A stretch of DNA of 64,000 bases, taken from Patescibacteria group bacterium. Its GTDB lineage: Bacteria > Patescibacteriota > Microgenomatia > Levybacterales > UBA12049. Shown in pieces: positions 18,345 through 49,633 of the stretch. The notes beneath the pieces were generated by a model. That model had not been told where the DNA came from. It saw nothing but the letters and a program-made list of their open reading frames with translations, and searched no databases. The translations under genes were made by a program, and so were the position numbers. The stretch spans positions 1,013 to 65,012 of the forward strand of contig DATICB010000008.1 in the NCBI GenBank assembly GCA_035457005.1, given 5' to 3'. Position 1 is the first letter of the stretch. Each line of letters opens with the position of its first letter.

Positions 18345-18414
18345 TGTCATCCCGCACTTGATGCGGGATCCAGTTCCTTATTTATATAGATTCCTGATCA
18401 AGTCAGGAATGACA
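18345..18414 (+). mobile_element. MITE-like palindromic element type I in uvrB 5' region
   Basis: TGTCATCCCGCACTTGATGCGGGATCCAG...ATTCCTGATCAAGTCAGGAATGACA; two hairpins with compensatory stem changes relative to other copies; ends 5 nt before uvrB ATG. Confidence 0.8.
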
Positions 18415-18418
18415 TTAA

Positions 18419-20425
18419 ATGTATATGAAATTTCAACTCACATCAAAATTTAAGCCGTCCGGCGATCAGCCAGAGGCAATTAAAAAATTAACACAGGGCA
18501 TTGAAAAAAATGATAAACACCAAGTGCTCCTTGGTGTCACTGGTAGTGGCAAAACCTACACTATGGCCAACGTAATTCAAAATGTTCAAAAGCCAACACT
18601 CATTATTTCCCACAACAAAACACTAGCAGGTCAACTGTATCAGGAATTTAGAGAGTTTTTCCCTAACAACAGTGTCAATTATTTTGTGAGTTACTACGAT
18701 TACTATCAGCCAGAGGCGTACGTCCCAACAACAGATACGTACATTGAAAAAGAGGCAGAAATTAATGAAGAAATCGATAAATTACGACTTTCTGCAACAG
18801 CGAATCTTTTGACTCGAAAAGATGTCATTGTCATTGCCTCGGTAAGCTGCATCTACAATCTTGGCTCGCCTGTTGAGTATGGCAAATTTGTCTTAGAAAT
18901 GGCAAAAGGAATGAAAATCGAAAGCAGAGATATTTTGCTTCGACTCACAGATTTACAATATGAGCGAAATGAGTATGGATTTAAAAGGGGGTCATTTAGA
19001 GTGCGAGGAGAAAATATAGATGTTTTCCCAGCGTACATGGACCATGGTCTTCGGATTGATATACAAAATGGGAAAATAATTGGTCTTTCAGAGTTTGATC
19101 CACTAACTGGCGAAACAGTACAAATACTCAAAAATACCATTGTCTACCCTGCCAAACACTACATGACAGACCCTGCTTCTTACGGTGGTGTTTTCCCTCA
19201 GATTAAAAATGACATGGAAAAACGAGTAAAAGAGCTGACAAGCATGAATAAATTGGTTGAAGCACAAAGAATTAAACAACGGGTAAGTTACGACTTGGAA
19301 ATGATTAATGAAATTGGTTATGTGAATGGTATAGAAAACTACTCGAGATATTTTGATGGACGTGAGCCAGGCCAGCCACCATATACGTTGATTGATTATC
19401 TACAGGCATGCTCCAAAGACTGGTTGCTTCTTGTTGATGAATCGCACATTACTCTTCCTCAAATTCGAGGCATGTACAATGGTGATAGGGCGCGAAAAGA
19501 AACACTGATTGAATACGGTTTCCGCTTGCCATCTGCACTTGATAATAGACCGTTAAAATTTGAGGAATTTATGGGACGGGTCAATCAGGCAGTGTATGTG
19601 TCAGCAACCCCAGACGAATATGAATTATCTCTTTCCGGACAAGACAACATTGCCGAACAACTAATTCGTCCAACTGGCATTGTGGACCCGCAGGTAACAG
19701 TAAAACCAACAGAGGGGCAAATTACTGACCTTATTGCAGAAATTCAAAAAAGAGTTGCAAAAAAGCAGCGAGTCTTAGTAACAACCCTTACAAAAAAAAT
19801 GGCAGAAGAACTGTCTAATTATTTAGAGGAAGGAGGCATAAAAGTGGCATATCTTCACTCTGATATCGAGACAATTAATAGACAAGACATTTTAGATAAT
19901 TTACGAAAAGGTGAATACGACGTATTAGTTGGTATTAATTTATTGCGTGAGGGTATTGATTTGCCAGAAGTTACCTTGGTTGCAATTTTGGATGCAGACA
20001 AAGAAGGATTTCTGAGAAGTAAAACGTCACTCATTCAGACCATGGGAAGAGCTGCGCGAAATATAGACTCAGAAGTTATTTTATATGCAGACACCATGAC
20101 TGGGTCAATGAATGAGGCAATAAGAGAAGTAGAAAGACGAAGAGAGGCACAACTTGCGTACAATAAAAAGCATAATATTACTCCGACAACTATCGAAAAA
20201 GCAATTCGCGAAAGATTGTATGAAGAAGAGGAAGAAGAAGCAACCCATAGGTCCCGGCCAATTGATTTAGTTTTGGAATTAGCAGACAAAGATGTGCTTC
20301 TGCCAGATGAACGGGAGAAGGTTATTGGCAGGCTCAGACAAGAAATGAAAACAGCTGCAAAGAATTTAGATTTTGAAACAGCAGCACTCCTTCGAGATAG
20401 AATAAAACAATTGCAAAACAATTAG
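18419..20425 (+). CDS. uvrB: excinuclease ABC subunit B
   Basis: GDQPEAIKKL, helicase motifs, C-terminal UvrB/UvrC interaction domain; 668 aa. Confidence 0.9.
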   Translation: MYMKFQLTSKFKPSGDQPEAIKKLTQGIEKNDKHQVLLGVTGSGKTYTMANVIQNVQKPTLIISHNKTLAGQLYQEFREFFPNNSVNYFVSYYDYYQPEAYVPTTDTYIEKEAEINEEIDKLRLSATANLLTRKDVIVIASVSCIYNLGSPVEYGKFVLEMAKGMKIESRDILLRLTDLQYERNEYGFKRGSFRVRGENIDVFPAYMDHGLRIDIQNGKIIGLSEFDPLTGETVQILKNTIVYPAKHYMTDPASYGGVFPQIKNDMEKRVKELTSMNKLVEAQRIKQRVSYDLEMINEIGYVNGIENYSRYFDGREPGQPPYTLIDYLQACSKDWLLLVDESHITLPQIRGMYNGDRARKETLIEYGFRLPSALDNRPLKFEEFMGRVNQAVYVSATPDEYELSLSGQDNIAEQLIRPTGIVDPQVTVKPTEGQITDLIAEIQKRVAKKQRVLVTTLTKKMAEELSNYLEEGGIKVAYLHSDIETINRQDILDNLRKGEYDVLVGINLLREGIDLPEVTLVAILDADKEGFLRSKTSLIQTMGRAARNIDSEVILYADTMTGSMNEAIREVERRREAQLAYNKKHNITPTTIEKAIRERLYEEEEEEATHRSRPIDLVLELADKDVLLPDEREKVIGRLRQEMKTAAKNLDFETAALLRDRIKQLQNN

Positions 20426-20832
20426 AATCCGCTAATGTTTTCCACGTGCTCGATATCTACAACGCTTTTGTCTTTATCCAAAACAACACCAATCGCATCA
20501 ATTCTCATTTGCTGTGGCAATTTGGGATGAGTCGATTGATACAAAGAGGCTGTTTTGACTAAGTTTTGGATTTTTGCTTTGGTGATTGCTTCGAAAGGTG
20601 TTCCATATTCGCCAGAAATCCGGGTTTTGACTTCGAAAAACACTAATACATTATCTTTTGTGGCAATAATGTCTATTTCGGTATAGTTTTTTCGAAAATT
20701 CATCTCCACAACGCTGTAGCCTTTGCTGTGAATAAAATGCGCAGCAATGTCTTCTCCCCTTTTCCCAACAGGATTGGCAACATGAAAAGTCATACCCTGA
20801 GTATGAGCAAAAGCAAGGAAAAACACAAGCAA
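20422..20832 (-). CDS. yraN: YraN-family (UPF0102) putative endonuclease
   Basis: GEDIAAHFIHSKGYSVVEMNFR...EIDIIAT...VFFEVKTR matches YraN core; probable start at internal Met (20793). Confidence 0.65.
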   Translation of the reverse strand: MLVFFLAFAHTQGMTFHVANPVGKRGEDIAAHFIHSKGYSVVEMNFRKNYTEIDIIATKDNVLVFFEVKTRISGEYGTPFEAITKAKIQNLVKTASLYQSTHPKLPQQMRIDAIGVVLDKDKSVVDIEHVENISGF

Positions 20833-20862
20833 ATTCCTCTTGCTTGCATTTTCCTATTTTAG

Positions 20863-47731: not shown

Positions 47732-49144
47732 ATGGCAAAAAATACTGGCATTATTATTAAAATCCAAGGACCAGTCGTTGACGTACGATTTAAATCAGAA
47801 GTTCCGCAAATTAACGAAGCACTTACAGTCGAACTCCCTAGTAAAAAAACACTCACTCTGGAAGTTGCTTTTGAAACAGGAAGCAACGAAGTAAAAGCAT
47901 TAGCGCTCGGTAGTACAGATGGTCTAACGCGAGGCATGAATGTTGAGGCAACTGGCGCACCAATTAGCGTCCCAGTTGGCAATGAAACGCTAGGCCGTAT
48001 CTTTAATGTGTTGGGTGAAACAATTGATGGAGACAAGCCTTTAGCAAAATCAGTCAAGCTCTCCCCAATTCACAAAGCGGCTCCAAAACTCACTGATCAA
48101 ACAACCAAACCAGAAGTTTTAGAGACTGGCATTAAAGTTATTGATCTTATCGCACCCTTTACCAAAGGCGGCAAGATTGCTATTTTCGGCGGCGCAGGCG
48201 TTGGCAAGACCGTTGTTATTAAAGAGCTGATTCGAAATATTGCCCAGGAACACAAAGGCCACGCAGTTTTTGCAGGCGTCGGAGAACGTACGCGTGAAGG
48301 AAATGATTTGTGGTTGGAAATGAAAGAGGCAAATGTTATGGACAAGACCGTTATGGTGTATGGCCAAATGAATGAGCCACCGGCAAACAGAATGCGAGTC
48401 GGACTCACCGCTCTTACCATGGCAGAGTATTTCCGAGACGAAAAGCACGAAGACGTTTTACTTTTTATAGATAATATTTTTAGATTCGCACAGGCAGGCA
48501 GTGAAGTATCTGCACTTTTAGGAAGAATGCCTAGCGCTGTAGGGTACCAGCCAACACTTGCTAACGAAGTCGGACAACTTGAAGAAAGAATTACCAGTAC
48601 TAAAGATGGATCCATTACCTCAGTCCAGGCAGTGTATGTGCCAGCAGATGATTACACCGATCCTGCGCCGGCAACCATTTTCTCTCATTTAGATGCAACA
48701 GTTACCTTAGACCGAGGACTTGCATCTCAAGGACTTTTCCCAGCAGTTGATCCTCTTAATTCATCTTCCCGTATTTTAGATGCCAATGTTGTGGGACAAG
48801 AACATTATGAAGTCGCACGAGGTGTGCAAAAAGTATTACAGCGCTACAAAGACTTACAGGATATTATCGCAATTTTGGGCATGGACGAACTATCTGCAGA
48901 AGATAAGCAAACAGTCTTTAGAGCCAGAAAAATTCAAAGGTTTTTGACCCAGCCAATGTATGTTGCGGAAATTTTTGGAGGTCCTCCAGGCAGATATGTA
49001 AAAGTTGCAGATAACGTACGAGGATTTAAAGAAATATTAGAGGGAAAGCATGACGATTTGCCCGAACAAGCTTTTTATTTAGCAGGTACTATTGAGGATG
49101 TTATTGAAAAAGCAAAGCAAATGAAGAAAGAAGAAAAGAAATAA
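47732..49144 (+). CDS. atpD: F0F1 ATP synthase beta subunit
   Basis: Walker [17 protein letters not shown] motif; 470 aa. Confidence 0.95.
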
Positions 49145-49154
49145 ACGCTCTCCT

Positions 49155-49218
49155 TGTCATCCCTGACTTGATCAGGGATCCAGGAATATAATAGATTCCT
49201 GCCTTCGCAGGAATGACA
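49155..49218 (+). mobile_element. MITE-like palindromic element type I in atpD-atpC spacer
   Basis: TGTCATCCCTGACTTGATCAGGGATCCAG gaatataatag ATTCCTGCCTTCGCAGGAATGACA; ends 8 nt before atpC ATG. Confidence 0.85.
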
Positions 49219-49225
49219 AAATACT

Positions 49226-49633
49226 ATGCCATTACAACTCACCGTCGTAACTCCAGAAAAACAACTTCTCTCAGAAGAAGTAGATGAAATCATTGTCCCA
49301 ACAACCAGTGGCGAGCTGACCATCTTACCCCAACACGCCGCGCTTTTAGCCCAGCTTGTCCCAGGTGAGTTGGTTATTAAAAAAGGTAACAAAACAGATC
49401 ACTTAGTCGTAGTTGGCGGGTTTTTGGAAGTTGGCAAGAATACCGTGAGTATTTTGGCTGACTATGCAGTCCATGGCAAAGATATCTCTGAAGCTCAGGC
49501 TCAACAGGCAAAAGATAGAGCAGAAAAAGCAATGAAAGAGAAAAAATCAGATGTTGATTTTGCAACTGCCGAGGCAGAATTTAGAAGAGCAATTTTAGAG
49601 CTAAAAGTTGCGAAGCGTCAAAAAGGAATCTAG
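49226..49633 (+). CDS. atpC: F0F1 ATP synthase epsilon subunit
   Basis: 135 aa, beta-sandwich N-domain (LQLTVVTPEKQLLSEEVDEIIVPTTSGELTILPQHA) + helical C-term. Confidence 0.85.
   Translation: MPLQLTVVTPEKQLLSEEVDEIIVPTTSGELTILPQHAALLAQLVPGELVIKKGNKTDHLVVVGGFLEVGKNTVSILADYAVHGKDISEAQAQQAKDRAEKAMKEKKSDVDFATAEAEFRRAILELKVAKRQKGI

What the first reader, a model, noticed from the sequence alone, without database searches (positions are those of the whole stretch)
18414..49226. Intergenic elements all point the same way and end 5-15 nt before start codons, especially in the ATP synthase operon
Every intergenic copy has its ...(G/A)GAATGACA end 5-15 nt upstream of the downstream ATG:
- uvrB at 18419;
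- murT at 30939;
- atpH at 44940 (the ATG is the third of three ATGACA repeats);
- atpG at 46875;
- atpC at 49226.
A fragment also ends ~10 nt before the atpF ATG. Four of the seven atp intercistronic junctions carry an element (E|F, F|H, A|G, D|C), whereas B|E, H|A and G|D are tightly coupled. The AGGAAT/AGAAT tail could act as an SD-like purine tract in a genome otherwise lacking SDs. The hairpins could also be processing or stability determinants that set differential subunit stoichiometry.
Basis: partly seen in the sequence, partly recalled or inferred. Interest (0 to 1): 0.7.

Follow-up and report, generated by a model that had tools for sequence, protein, structure and literature searches.

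The report
Mobile hairpin-pair repeats between CPR genes
The "elements" are copies of a known, widespread family of mobile DNA hairpin repeats (CGTC/TGTC-tagged REPs, the target motifs of small GIY-YIG "Ssn" nucleases) wedged into the tiny gaps between genes of a Candidate Phyla Radiation bacterium. They sit near start codons because the gaps are tiny, not because they act as ribosome-binding sites.

Summary
Each is a pair of "TGTCAT + hairpin + C" modules in inverted orientation (TGTCAT…ATGACA, 52-76 nt). These match the published CGTC/TGTC-tagged REPs, also known as Neisseria dRS3/NTS or Ssn-related motifs.

In other CPR contigs the same two arms flank a ~95-aa GIY-YIG nuclease gene. The window copies therefore look like gene-less miniatures of that unit.

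"All point the same way" does not hold:
- An identical copy lies reversed and in frame inside holA.
- In relatives and metagenomes both orientations are about equally common.

Closeness to the ATG is not element-specific. In 81 Levybacteria atp operons most junctions are tight. In 79 expanded, structured junctions (67 unrelated sequence clusters) the hairpin starts a median 3 nt after the stop. It ends a median 9 nt before the start, leaving an A/U-rich, G-poor leader.

The Shine-Dalgarno idea is not supported. The lineage's real SD is GGAGGTGA (before atpE), and the AGGAAT tail is buried in a stem.

A secondary mRNA-stability or decoupling role stays plausible but untested. Hairpin inserts recur at E|F, A|G and D|C.

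Verdict: new member of a known kind, moderate-to-low interest.

The parts
7068..7140 (-). Complete doublet (c-type arm 7068-7092, b-type arm 7116-7140) inside holA. It is translated in frame as ...VIPAKAGIQKEDKEPGSLIKSGMT.... It is reversed relative to the atpC copy.
   Evidence: Arms are 100% identical, in inverted orientation, to 49154-49184 and 49194-49218 (I1, I10). The ORF reads through. Pfam DNA_pol3_delta_C begins right after it. Many homologs lack the insert.
18313..18339 (+). Solo module, a-type (TGTCATTGCGAACGAAGTGAAGCAATC; 5-bp stem, 12-nt loop), in the lexA-uvrB divergent spacer.
18345..18414 (+). Complete doublet (b-type arms; left ATCCCGCA, right ATTCCTGA) ending 4 nt before the uvrB ATG at 18419. 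Its left arm is the only exact match to the published SRM search string.
30882..30933 (+). Complete doublet (d-type arms) between the M48 peptidase stop (30870) and the murT ATG (30939). It folds as one long hairpin.
   Evidence: -18.8 kcal/mol, z -3.3.
44300..44352 (+). Degenerate, tag-less d-type doublet in the atpE|atpF spacer. It has a 14-bp stem (44310-44323 / 44328-44341) and ends 'ACTCAGAAT' 7 nt before the atpF ATG at 44356.
   Evidence: -24.2 kcal/mol, z -5.5. The right arm resembles 30911-30928.
44875..44931 (+). Doublet in the atpF|atpH spacer (left d-type arm, right arm with one wobble). It starts 21 nt after the atpF stop and ends 8 nt before the atpH ATG at 44940. An orthologous copy is present in relative L001.
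46785..46860 (+). Doublet (a-type arms, both ATTGC) in the atpA|atpG spacer. It starts 1 nt after the atpA stop and ends 14 nt before the atpG ATG. It folds as one long hairpin. Orthologous copies are present in L001 and L006.
   Evidence: (-38.8 kcal/mol, z -6.1).
49155..49218 (+). Doublet (left b-type arm, right c-type arm, i.e. NTS-like) in the atpD|atpC spacer. It starts 10 nt after the stop and ends 7 nt before the atpC ATG at 49226. It has the same arm order as the GIY-YIG unit in L201.
   Evidence: Sub-threshold Rfam match to FtrB.
51525..51559 (+). Solo left-type module (d-type with an enlarged loop), 13 nt upstream of the likely ATG (51572) of a second LexA-like S24 peptidase gene. 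It has no ATGACA partner.
44060..44067 (+). Genuine Shine-Dalgarno sequence GGAGGTGA, 10 nt upstream of the atpE ATG at 44078 and inside the 3' end of atpB. It serves as a reference for what an SD looks like in this lineage.
   Evidence: The same motif lies before atpE in 15 relatives.

Best explanation
Identity (shown). The elements are doublets of CGTC/TGTC-tagged REP modules. Each module has an unpaired (T/C)GTC tag, a stem that begins A-T/T-A, a short loop, and then a C or CCA tail. This is the family that includes Neisseria dRS3/NTS, Rickettsia RPE-4/-6 and the 'Ssn-related motifs'. Two modules face each other with their tags outward (TGTCAT...ATGACA).

Origin and upkeep (inferred). They are gene-less, MITE/REPIN-like derivatives of a unit in which the same two arms flank a ~95-aa single-domain GIY-YIG (Ssn-type) nuclease gene. 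They are made and maintained at the DNA level. The hairpin forms in single-stranded DNA and is recognised by that kind of enzyme. This explains why stems co-vary while the tag and the 3' C stay fixed.

Position (shown comparatively). The host is a very compact Levybacteria (CPR) genome. Copies survive almost only in the few-nucleotide spacers between genes, and occasionally in frame in a tolerant protein loop (holA). So both ends lie within about 1-20 nt of a stop and a start codon. Copies that persist sit hard against the upstream stop. They leave about 5-15 nt of unstructured, A/U-rich, G-poor leader before the next ATG. The same holds for unrelated palindromes in the same spacers.

Why (inferred). 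That free leader is what SD-independent initiation needs. The element's orientation is irrelevant, and its AGGAAT tail is not a ribosome-binding site.

Consequence (inferred, untested). Because they are co-transcribed, the doublets place stable stem-loops (-19 to -39 kcal/mol) directly after atpE, atpF, atpA and atpD. These may secondarily stabilise upstream mRNA segments or loosen translational coupling.
For: Anatomy.
- 12 modules are present, arranged as inverted pairs.
- b and c arms have 8-bp stems, 4-5-nt loops and a CCA tail. This is exactly as described for CGTC-1 to CGTC-4 REPs in PMC3733652.

Match to NTS/SRM.
- The c arm TGTCATTCCTGCGAAGGCAGGAATCC differs from the NTS consensus CGTCATTCCCGCGMAVGCGGGAATCYRG mainly by one compensatory pair (PMC11893778).
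- 18345-18373 matches the SRM search string exactly, against 0.07 expected.
- Metagenome arms include literal NTS sequences.

Structure is selected.
- At three stem pairs left free by the search pattern, 128-134 of 135 metagenome matches are Watson-Crick, with 3-4 pair types each.

Link to a GIY-YIG gene.
- L171, L172, L201 and L204 show TGTCAT-hairpin, 5-25 nt, ATG...GIY-YIG (Pfam PF01541, E 1e-15 to 1e-18)...stop, hairpin-ATGACA.
- L201 has a b arm on the left and a c arm on the right, like 49155-49218.
- L172 holds the gene plus at least 6 gene-less b...c doublets.
- There are 6444 homologs, many of them named from CPR phyla.

Mobility.
- In 81 atp operons most junctions are -11 to +10 nt. 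Occupied junctions differ between relatives.
- The arm motif is found in contigs of 25-67% GC.
- Two copies with identical arms lie 42 kb apart in opposite orientation.

Position.
- The hairpin starts a median 3 nt after the stop and ends a median 9 nt before the start. The 3' tail is the longer one in 58 cases against 18, p=2e-6.
- The asymmetry is the same for SRM and non-SRM spacers. The tails contain 7% G.
- PMC3733652 likewise reports REPs close to the 3' ends of upstream ORFs.

Orientation is random outside the window.

The palindromes are DNA-level. Sense and antisense strands fold nearly equally well, with equal G-U counts.

They are not terminators. No plus-strand terminator-like site occurs in the atp operon.
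Against: - No GIY-YIG gene lies in the 64-kb window or in about 1 Mb of Levybacteria atp loci. The link to an Ssn enzyme in this genome is therefore by analogy with other CPR contigs.
- Transposition by Ssn-type nucleases has never been demonstrated. The published role is ssDNA cleavage that modulates transformation.
- The a-type and d-type arms (5-bp stems, 11-18-nt loops) fall outside the published CGTC/SRM definitions.
- The F|H and A|G copies are shared with a relative whose 4-fold sites are only 49% identical, yet their right arms are about 83% identical. A purely selfish, decaying insert would not be expected to stay that similar. This needs selection or repeated homogenisation.
- The E|F copy has lost its tags but keeps a 14-bp stem. 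That hints at selection on the hairpin itself.
Confidence: 0.8

Rival explanations
1. Exapted RNA elements. This is compatible with the main explanation as a second layer. Once transcribed inside the atp mRNA, the hairpins act as 3' stabilisers of the upstream cistron and/or as decouplers of translation. That would help set c > alpha, beta > gamma, delta, epsilon, b stoichiometry in a genome that rarely uses SD sequences.
For: - Structured inserts recur at E|F (34/73; 32 with z<-2), A|G (20/76; 19) and D|C (22/71; 14). In each case the upstream gene is the high-copy subunit. They are rare at H|A (2/70) and G|D (7/79).
- They arose many times from unrelated sequences: 67 clusters among 79 spacers.
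- The hairpins abut the stop codon, as stabilising stem-loops do.
- The E|F copy keeps a 14-bp stem, with a G-U pair on the sense strand, although its tags are lost.
- Arms are conserved above the 4-fold-site level between the window and L001.
- A Francisella doublet of the same two arms accumulates as a stable ~110-nt RNA, FtrB.
- Differential decay shaped by protective structures is known for operons (PMC5927463, listed but not read here; own knowledge for malEF REP and puf).
Against: - Most relatives manage with tight junctions and no hairpin.
- There is no sense-strand preference in folding energy or G-U pairs beyond a small effect (53 against 40, p=0.02; G-U 220 against 237).
- Lineage-wide, atp junctions are not richer in structured inserts than other co-directional junctions (56/413 against 29/287, p=0.2).
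- The rarity at H|A and G|D may simply reflect 8-nt gene overlaps that leave no neutral insertion site.
- No expression data are available.
Confidence: 0.3
2. The purine-rich tail (AGGAAT/AGAAT) of the right arm is a Shine-Dalgarno-like ribosome-binding site for the downstream gene.
For: - Few genes in the window have SD-like tetramers upstream (10 of 68 ORFs).
- AGGA occurs in the uvrB and atpC copies.
- All five right ends lie 5-15 nt from an ATG.
Against: - The lineage's real SD is GGAGGTGA, seen before atpE in the window and in 15 relatives.
- 3 of 5 tails lack GG.
- AGGA is 10 and 13 nt from the ATG and is base-paired in an 8-bp stem.
- Orthologous genes in relatives start without any such tract.
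- Orientation is mixed in relatives.
- Unrelated palindromes show the same spacing.
Confidence: 0.03
3. The doublets are ordinary MITEs of a DDE transposon (TG...CA termini), or REPINs moved by a RAYT tyrosine transposase, and are unrelated to GIY-YIG nucleases.
For: - The termini TGTCAT...ATGACA obey the TG...CA rule (own knowledge).
- The doublet architecture equals that of a REPIN (PMC3337134, listed).
- Di Nocera et al. found no dedicated transposase for CGTC REPs.
Against: - No target-site duplication is visible at the six complete copies.
- The tag is CGTC/TGTC, not GTAG.
- The same arms flank GIY-YIG genes in four independent CPR or metagenome contigs.
- 71% of Ssn homologs are reported to be flanked by such motifs (PMC11893778).
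- No transposase-like ORF was seen next to any copy.
Confidence: 0.1
4. The hairpins are intrinsic terminators or attenuators that partition the atp operon into separate transcription units.
For: The stems are stable and G+C-containing. One terminator-like site overlaps the atpC copy, but on the minus strand.
Against: - No plus-strand terminator-like site occurs in 43300-49700. The total is 5 found against 5.7 expected.
- No U-tract follows the stems. The 3' tails are A/U mixed and lead straight into an ATG.
- Promoter-like sites occur at chance level (15 against 13.8).
Confidence: 0.03

Closest known systems
CGTC-tagged REPs, families CGTC-1 to CGTC-4 (Di Nocera, De Gregorio & Rocco 2013, PMC3733652). 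This includes Neisseria dRS3 and Rickettsia RPE-4/RPE-6.
   Same: - The unpaired tag is CGTC, often TGTC.
- Stems of 8-9 bp start with A-T/T-A.
- Loops are 4 or 5 nt.
- The tail is CCA.
- Modules occur mostly as inverted dimers with 20-100-bp (here 9-21-bp) spacers.
- Copies lie close to the 3' end of the upstream ORF.
- Some copies lie in frame inside replication and repair genes, here holA.
   Different: - The host phylum (Levybacteria/CPR) is not among the 5 phyla reported.
- Two arm types here (a: ATTGC...GCAAT; d: ATCCT/ATTCT...AGGAT/AGAAT) have 5-bp stems and 11-18-nt loops, outside the published families.
- Spacers are very short.
- Copies also abut the downstream start codon because the intergenic space is minimal.
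NTS / Ssn-related motifs with the SsnA GIY-YIG single-strand DNA nuclease (Chenal et al. 2025, PMC11893778)
   Same: - The sequence is near-identical to NTS, including the conserved upstream GTCAT and the C after the palindrome.
- An SRM-gene-SRM architecture around ~95-aa GIY-YIG genes is seen in CPR contigs (L171, L172, L201, L204).
- Copy density is high: 11 strict modules in 64 kb.
   Different: - No ssn gene lies in the visible 64 kb.
- The published function (cutting incoming ssDNA to modulate transformation) is untested in CPR.
- The paper does not describe gene-less doublets as derivatives of the unit.
- Most window modules fail the literal SRM string because a C:G pair is replaced by T:A.
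REPIN/RAYT system and E. coli REP/BIME elements
   Same: - Inverted pairs of tagged hairpins act as the mobile, non-autonomous unit.
- They are recognised as ssDNA hairpins.
- They are located in operon spacers, where they can stabilise upstream mRNA (malE-malF; own knowledge).
   Different: The tag is CGTC/TGTC rather than GTAG. The associated gene is a GIY-YIG nuclease rather than an IS200/IS605-type tyrosine transposase.
Francisella sRNA FtrB (Rfam RF02748; Postic et al. 2010, PMC3091763)
   Same: The FtrB consensus contains a c-type arm (GUCAUUCCCGCGUAGGCGGGAAUC) followed by an inverted b-type arm. These are the same two arms as 49155-49218. It accumulates as a stable ~110-nt RNA.
   Different: - The match is sub-threshold (35.2 bits against a gathering score of 66).
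- FtrB is a free-standing transcript with its own promoter.
- Its deletion gave no phenotype.
Rickettsia palindromic elements inserted in frame in proteins; Correia elements of Neisseria
   Same: - The holA copy is translated in frame in a variable loop, like RPEs.
- Co-transcribed hairpin MITEs next to coding regions can alter mRNA fate, like Correia/ERIC elements (own knowledge; PMC3733652 background).
   Different: The elements here are much shorter than RPE-1 or Correia elements. No RNase III processing data exist for CPR.

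Membership tests
CGTC-tagged REP (PMC3733652) | Unpaired terminal tag CGTC (variant TGTC) at one end of the palindrome | tested here: met
   All 12 window modules start TGTCAT, with the stem beginning at AT. Relatives show both TGTC and CGTC.
CGTC-tagged REP (PMC3733652) | Stem of 8-9 bp with A-T and T-A as the first two pairs; loop of 4-5 nt; 3-nt tail fitting CCA | tested here: inconclusive
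   Met by 7 b/c-type arms (8-bp stems, loops 4-5; tails CCA, or CTA on two arms). Not met by a-type and d-type arms (5-bp stems, 11-20-nt loops; tails CTC, CTT or ATA).
CGTC-tagged REP (PMC3733652) | [quoted passage not shown] | tested here: met
   Six doublets against two solos in the window. The hairpin starts a median 3 nt after the stop. There is an in-frame copy in holA.
NTS / Ssn-related motif (PMC11893778) | Match to HGTCWYN(0-2)YYVSBRHN(0-5)WNVSBRGN(0-2)RNCYNB | tested here: inconclusive
   There is one exact match (18345-18373), against 0.07 expected. Other b/c arms fail only because one C:G stem pair is T:A (by inspection). a/d arms do not match.
NTS / Ssn-related motif (PMC11893778) | Conserved bases upstream of the palindrome (GTC) and a C immediately after it, giving the module a direction | tested here: met
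   11 of 13 window modules have the C, against 0 in the reversed control.
NTS / Ssn-related motif (PMC11893778) | A cd10448-type single-domain GIY-YIG (Ssn) gene in the same genome, typically flanked by the motifs | not testable with these tools
   None was found in the 64-kb window or in 1 Mb of Levybacteria atp loci. The rest of the MAG could not be fetched. The architecture is present in other CPR or metagenome contigs.
NTS / Ssn-related motif (PMC11893778) | Bound and cleaved as single-stranded DNA (not dsDNA, not RNA) by the cognate Ssn | not testable with these tools
   Biochemical assay required.
REPIN / RAYT | GTAG tag and an associated IS200/IS605-type tyrosine transposase | tested here: not met
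   The tag is TGTC/CGTC. The gene found between such arms is GIY-YIG.
Shine-Dalgarno sequence | At least 4 nt complementary to the anti-SD (GGAGG core), accessible, about 5-10 nt upstream of the start | tested here: not met
   AGGA occurs only at uvrB (10 nt) and atpC (13 nt), and it is paired in the stem. Three of five tails lack GG. The true SD GGAGGTGA is seen at atpE.
Rfam RF02748 FtrB | Bit score at or above the gathering score (66) | tested here: not met
   35.2 bits, E 1e-4 to 6e-3. It shares modules with FtrB but is not a family member.
Intrinsic terminator | G+C-rich stem followed by a U-tract on the transcribed strand | tested here: not met
   No plus-strand site occurs in the atp operon.

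The most novel reading that the evidence does not exclude
In SD-poor Levybacteria, hairpin-forming inserts have been repeatedly recruited directly after the stop codons of the high-copy ATP synthase genes (atpE, atpA, atpD). These inserts include TGTC-tagged REP doublets and several unrelated palindromes. On this reading they act as intercistronic mRNA stabilisers or translational decouplers that tune F1Fo subunit ratios. Selection keeps a ~9-nt unstructured A/U leader for the next cistron. That would be convergent domestication of selfish DNA as operon-tuning RNA.
Probability: 0.22. Interest if true: 0.6.

Novelty: new member of a known kind. Interest (0 to 1): 0.33.

Why it matters
- It extends the CGTC-REP / Ssn-motif family into the Candidate Phyla Radiation.
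- It shows that the common two-arm doublets have the same ends as units that carry a small GIY-YIG nuclease gene. This supports the still-unproven idea that those units are mobile and spawn miniature copies.
- It gives a clean comparative rule for ultra-compact, SD-poor genomes. Insertions are tolerated right after a stop codon, provided about 9 nt of open A/U leader remain before the next start.
- It warns annotators of three things. Such repeats can sit in frame inside essential proteins (holA). They can be mistaken for regulatory signals. They also create spurious small ORFs and "sRNAs".

Tried and rejected
- **Rfam, gathering thresholds.** Only 5 tRNAs were found.
- **Rfam, permissive search.** This gave a sub-threshold FtrB hit, informative about shared arms but not membership, plus chance microRNA hits.
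- **Literal SRM search string.** It hit only one module. This is explained by compensatory pair changes rather than non-membership.
- **Search for a GIY-YIG gene.** I searched the window and 1 Mb of Levybacteria loci by regex, with remembered consensus sequences and with two real GIY-YIG proteins. Nothing was found.
- **Attempts to reach the rest of the source genome.** Neither AtpG nor the NCBI HolA protein P0121 is in the contig index. No metagenome locus is from the same species.
- **Supplements of PMC11893778.** They are not held, so CPR hosts could not be looked up there.
- **Promoter reading of the -10-like hexamers just upstream of three left ends** (TAAAAT, TACAAT, TAAACT; D1). Promoter-like sites occur at chance frequency, so this was not pursued.
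- **Sense against antisense folding as a test for RNA-level selection.** There is essentially no asymmetry.
- **Lineage-wide enrichment of atp junctions.** Not significant. The first run of that analysis timed out.
- **Phage carriage.** The arm motif occurs in only 19 viral contigs, none with a GIY-YIG gene nearby.
- **The triple ATGACA at atpH as an element-derived start codon.** Rejected. ATGACAAAA (MTK) is the native atpH start in relatives without the element.

Full report
**1. What is in the sequence**

The motif counts exceed chance. RGAATGACA occurs 6 times against 1.44 expected. TGTCATYSYGMRC occurs 9 times against 1.5 expected.

Reading the sites shows one building block: TGTCAT, whose AT opens a stem, then a loop, the closing stem, and usually a C.

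A hairpin scan finds 12 such modules. Under a strict definition there are 11, against 0 in a reversed-sequence control.

Most modules come as inverted pairs with the tags outward (TGTCAT...ATGACA, 52-76 nt):
- 7068-7140
- 18345-18414, with an extra solo module at 18313
- 30882-30933
- 44875-44931
- 46785-46860
- 49155-49218

In addition there is a tag-less, degenerate pair at about 44300-44352 and a solo module at 51525.

Four arm types occur:
- b: 8-bp stem, loop CTTGA.
- c: 8-bp stem, loop GAAG.
- a: ATTGC...GCAAT, long loop.
- d: ATCCT/ATTCT...AGGAT/AGAAT, long loop.

**2.

Pfam confirms atpB, E, F, A, G, D, C, uvrB and murT. The start codons are backed by conserved N-termini in relatives.

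Offsets from the right end to the ATG are 5-15 nt, as stated. E|F, F|H, A|G and D|C are occupied, while B|E, H|A and G|D are tight.

The left ends are equally close to the upstream stops (1-21 nt). Each element therefore simply fills a 68-91-nt spacer.

'Direction' exists only through small arm differences: an ATCC arm on the left and an ATTC arm on the right, in 4 of 4 asymmetric copies (p=0.125).

The copy at 7068-7140 has arms 100% identical to the atpC copy, but it is reversed (I1 and I10). It lies inside holA, read in frame as VIPAKAGIQ...PGSLIKSGMT.

The third ATGACA at atpH is the gene's native start.

**3. Whose genome**

AtpG relatives are Candidatus Levyibacteriota and other Patescibacteria MAGs, the best at 83% identity.

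HolA is 100% identical to an NCBI 'Patescibacteria group bacterium' protein (locus tag VLB73_01680) on a 72-kb contig.

**4. What the elements are**

A full-text search for the arm sequences led to Chenal et al. 2025 (PMC11893778).
- The Neisseria NTS (CGTCATTCCCGCGMAVGCGGGAATCYRG, which contains dRS3) and the broader 'Ssn-related motifs' are hairpins.
- A ~94-aa single-domain GIY-YIG nuclease, SsnA, binds them as single-stranded DNA and cuts a few nt upstream.
- The GTC before the palindrome and the C after it are critical.
- ssnA genes are typically flanked by the motif.

The window's c arm is NTS with one compensatory pair change. Module 18345-18373 matches the published search string exactly.

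Di Nocera et al. 2013 (PMC3733652) had already classified the same repeats as 'CGTC-tagged REPs'. Their description includes:
- a tag that is often TGTC;
- stems of 8-9 bp starting A-T/T-A, loops of 4-5 nt, and a CCA tail;
- mostly inverted dimers;
- some copies inside replication and repair genes;
- equivalence to dRS3 and to RPE-4/-6;
- no transposase known.

The b and c arms fit this description point by point. The a and d arms are looser variants.

**5. Link to a gene**

A metagenome scan for the b arm returned at least 120 loci with 25-67% GC.

Two of them (L171, L172) carry ~95-aa GIY-YIG genes (Pfam PF01541, E 1e-15 to 1e-18). Each gene is framed as TGTCAT-hairpin ... gene ... hairpin-ATGACA.

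The family has 6444 detected homologs, many of them named from CPR phyla.

Two further contigs, Doudnabacteria L201 and Parcubacteria L204, show the same framing. L201 has a b arm on the left and a c arm on the right, like the atpC copy.

L172 holds the gene together with at least 6 gene-less b...c doublets.

I therefore read the window's doublets as miniature, gene-less derivatives of such units. This is inferred. No GIY-YIG gene lies in the window or in 1 Mb of Levybacteria loci, and the rest of the MAG could not be fetched.

**6. The hairpin is under selection**

At three stem pairs not fixed by the search pattern, 128-134 of 135 metagenome matches are Watson-Crick, with 3-4 pair types each.

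**7. Comparison of atp operons**

The comparison covers 81 loci and 506 junctions.
- Most junctions are -11 to +10 nt.
- 111 junctions are at least 40 nt, and which junction is expanded differs between relatives.
- L001 (83% AtpG identity) shares the F|H and A|G copies. L002 (80%) has a 9-nt A|G junction.

Expanded spacers hold any of the following:
- TGTC doublets;
- unrelated A/T-rich long palindromes;
- heptamer tandem repeats.

By junction, the expanded fractions are:

| Junction | Expanded (≥40 nt) |
|---|---|
| E\|F | 34/73 |
| A\|G | 20/76 |
| D\|C | 22/71 |
| F\|H | 10/68 |
| G\|D | 7/79 |
| H\|A | 2/70 |

These expanded spacers are strongly structured, with z<-2 in 32, 19, 14, 7, 6 and 2 of the junctions in the table order above.

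Expanded B|E spacers are different. They carry AAGGAGGTGA before atpE.

The 79 structured spacers fall into 67 sequence clusters. This points to many independent origins.

**8. Orientation and distance**

Outside the window, doublets between co-directional genes split 6 (ATC arm upstream) against 8. Solo modules split 31 sense against 28 antisense.

In diverse metagenome contigs the median distance to the next start is 92 nt.

In Levybacteria atp spacers the structure starts a median 3 nt after the stop and ends a median 9 nt before the start.
- The 3' tail is the longer one in 58 cases against 18 (p=2e-6).
- The asymmetry is equal for SRM and non-SRM spacers.
- The tails are A/U-rich with 7% G.

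So 'ends 5-15 nt before the ATG' is real. It is a constraint on any insert (a free leader must remain), not a property of this element or of its orientation.

**9. The Shine-Dalgarno hypothesis**

SD-like tetramers precede only 10 of 68 ORFs. Even so, a full GGAGGTGA precedes atpE here and in relatives.

The AGGAAT tail is present in only 2 of 5 copies. It lies 10-13 nt from the ATG and is paired in a stem.

**10. RNA-level role**

All occupied spacers fold stably (-19 to -39 kcal/mol, z -2.1 to -6.1) with the start region open.

There are no plus-strand terminator-like sites, and promoter-like sites occur at chance level.

Evidence that leans towards an RNA-level role:
- Hairpins recur after the high-copy genes atpE, atpA and atpD.
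- The E|F copy has lost its tags but keeps its stem.
- Arm conservation between the window and L001 is above 4-fold-site identity (49% at 4-fold sites against about 83% for the right arms).
- A Francisella doublet with the same arms, FtrB, accumulates as a stable RNA.

Evidence against:
- Sense and antisense strands fold about equally well.
- atp junctions are not enriched lineage-wide.
- 8-nt gene overlaps at H|A and G|D may simply leave no place to insert.

I rate a secondary stabiliser or decoupler role at about 0.3.

**11. Verdict**

The elements are a known kind of repeat (CGTC/TGTC-tagged REP, also called the Ssn-related motif) in a new host phylum.

They are arranged as gene-less doublets that colonise intercistronic spacers and, in one case, a protein loop.

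The positional regularity is explained by genome compactness together with the need for an open leader before each start codon.

The SD reading is rejected. The stability reading remains open.

Noticed in passing
window 7068-7140 (holA, 6565-7326): A complete doublet is translated in frame inside the DNA polymerase III delta subunit, between the conserved RQxRILLAL and ISEVSR motifs. Homologs at 42-63% identity carry similar VIPAKAGIQ...DPGSKSGMT inserts (P0122, P0123, P0131, P0138, P0158). Others at 60-65% identity have none (P0124, P0127, P0129). This indicates either an insertion hot spot or an old, patchily lost insert, as with Rickettsia RPEs.
   Followed up: yes
window 17582-18286 (-) and 51545/51572-52138 (+): There are two LexA-like genes (Peptidase_S24; the first also has a LexA DNA-binding domain). 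Each has a TGTC module immediately upstream. The 132-nt lexA-uvrB divergent spacer is about 100 nt of element, so both SOS-type promoters must lie in or beside repeat DNA.
   Followed up: partly
window 1603-1680: The spacer between tRNA-Lys and tRNA-Glu holds a 33-nt imperfect palindrome (1617-1672), ending ...ACTGAGCGAAGCGAATG. It looks like a decayed, tag-less d-type arm pair.
   Followed up: no
window 44940-45272 and all L001-L080: The gene in the atpH (delta) position encodes only about 110 aa and has no Pfam hit. The atpF-to-atpA distance is about 345-360 nt in nearly all relatives. A short delta-like subunit is therefore a lineage trait.
   Followed up: partly
L073, L076, L080, L025 (A|G); L077, L080 (D|C); L003, L004 (D|C): Tandem heptamers (CTAAACC)n and (GTTATAA)n, or similar G-poor repeats, lie directly upstream of the atpG and atpC start codons in several relatives. 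They may be unstructured leaders or enhancers in an SD-poor lineage.
   Followed up: no
L024, L042, L047, L050, L065 (E|F); L001 (G|D, D|C): A second family of A/T-rich long palindromes, unrelated to the TGTC repeats (motif ...GAATTAAGAATCAAG...CTTGATTCTTAATTC...), occupies atp spacers in several relatives.
   Followed up: partly
L142 6391-6522; L172 whole locus: L142 has four identical b-type modules in direct tandem at a 36-nt period, giving a CRISPR-like appearance. L172 has 29 modules in 8.2 kb around a GIY-YIG gene.
   Followed up: no
window 49137-49232 (-): There is a sub-threshold Rfam match to the Francisella sRNA FtrB (35 bits against a gathering score of 66). The FtrB consensus is itself a c-arm plus b-arm doublet. 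That 'sRNA' family therefore appears to be a transcribed CGTC-REP dimer.
   Followed up: partly
window 18302-18312, 30871-30881, 44864-44874: Three left ends are preceded at 5 nt by -10-like hexamers (TAAAAT, TACAAT, TAAACT). At 44842-44869 there is a 10/12 match, TTGACA-16-TAAACT. Overall, promoter-like sites occur at chance level.
   Followed up: partly
window about 48000-50000: Cumulative GC skew peaks near 48 kb. Gene orientation switches from plus to minus at 49.6 kb, where atpC meets a convergent gene. This could be a replication terminus or merely a strand switch.
   Followed up: no
window 29341-29397: The 57-nt spacer between two co-directional genes holds a different palindrome (GTTCGTTGTTCATAG...CTACGATGAACTC, z -3.1) with no TGTC tag.
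   Followed up: no
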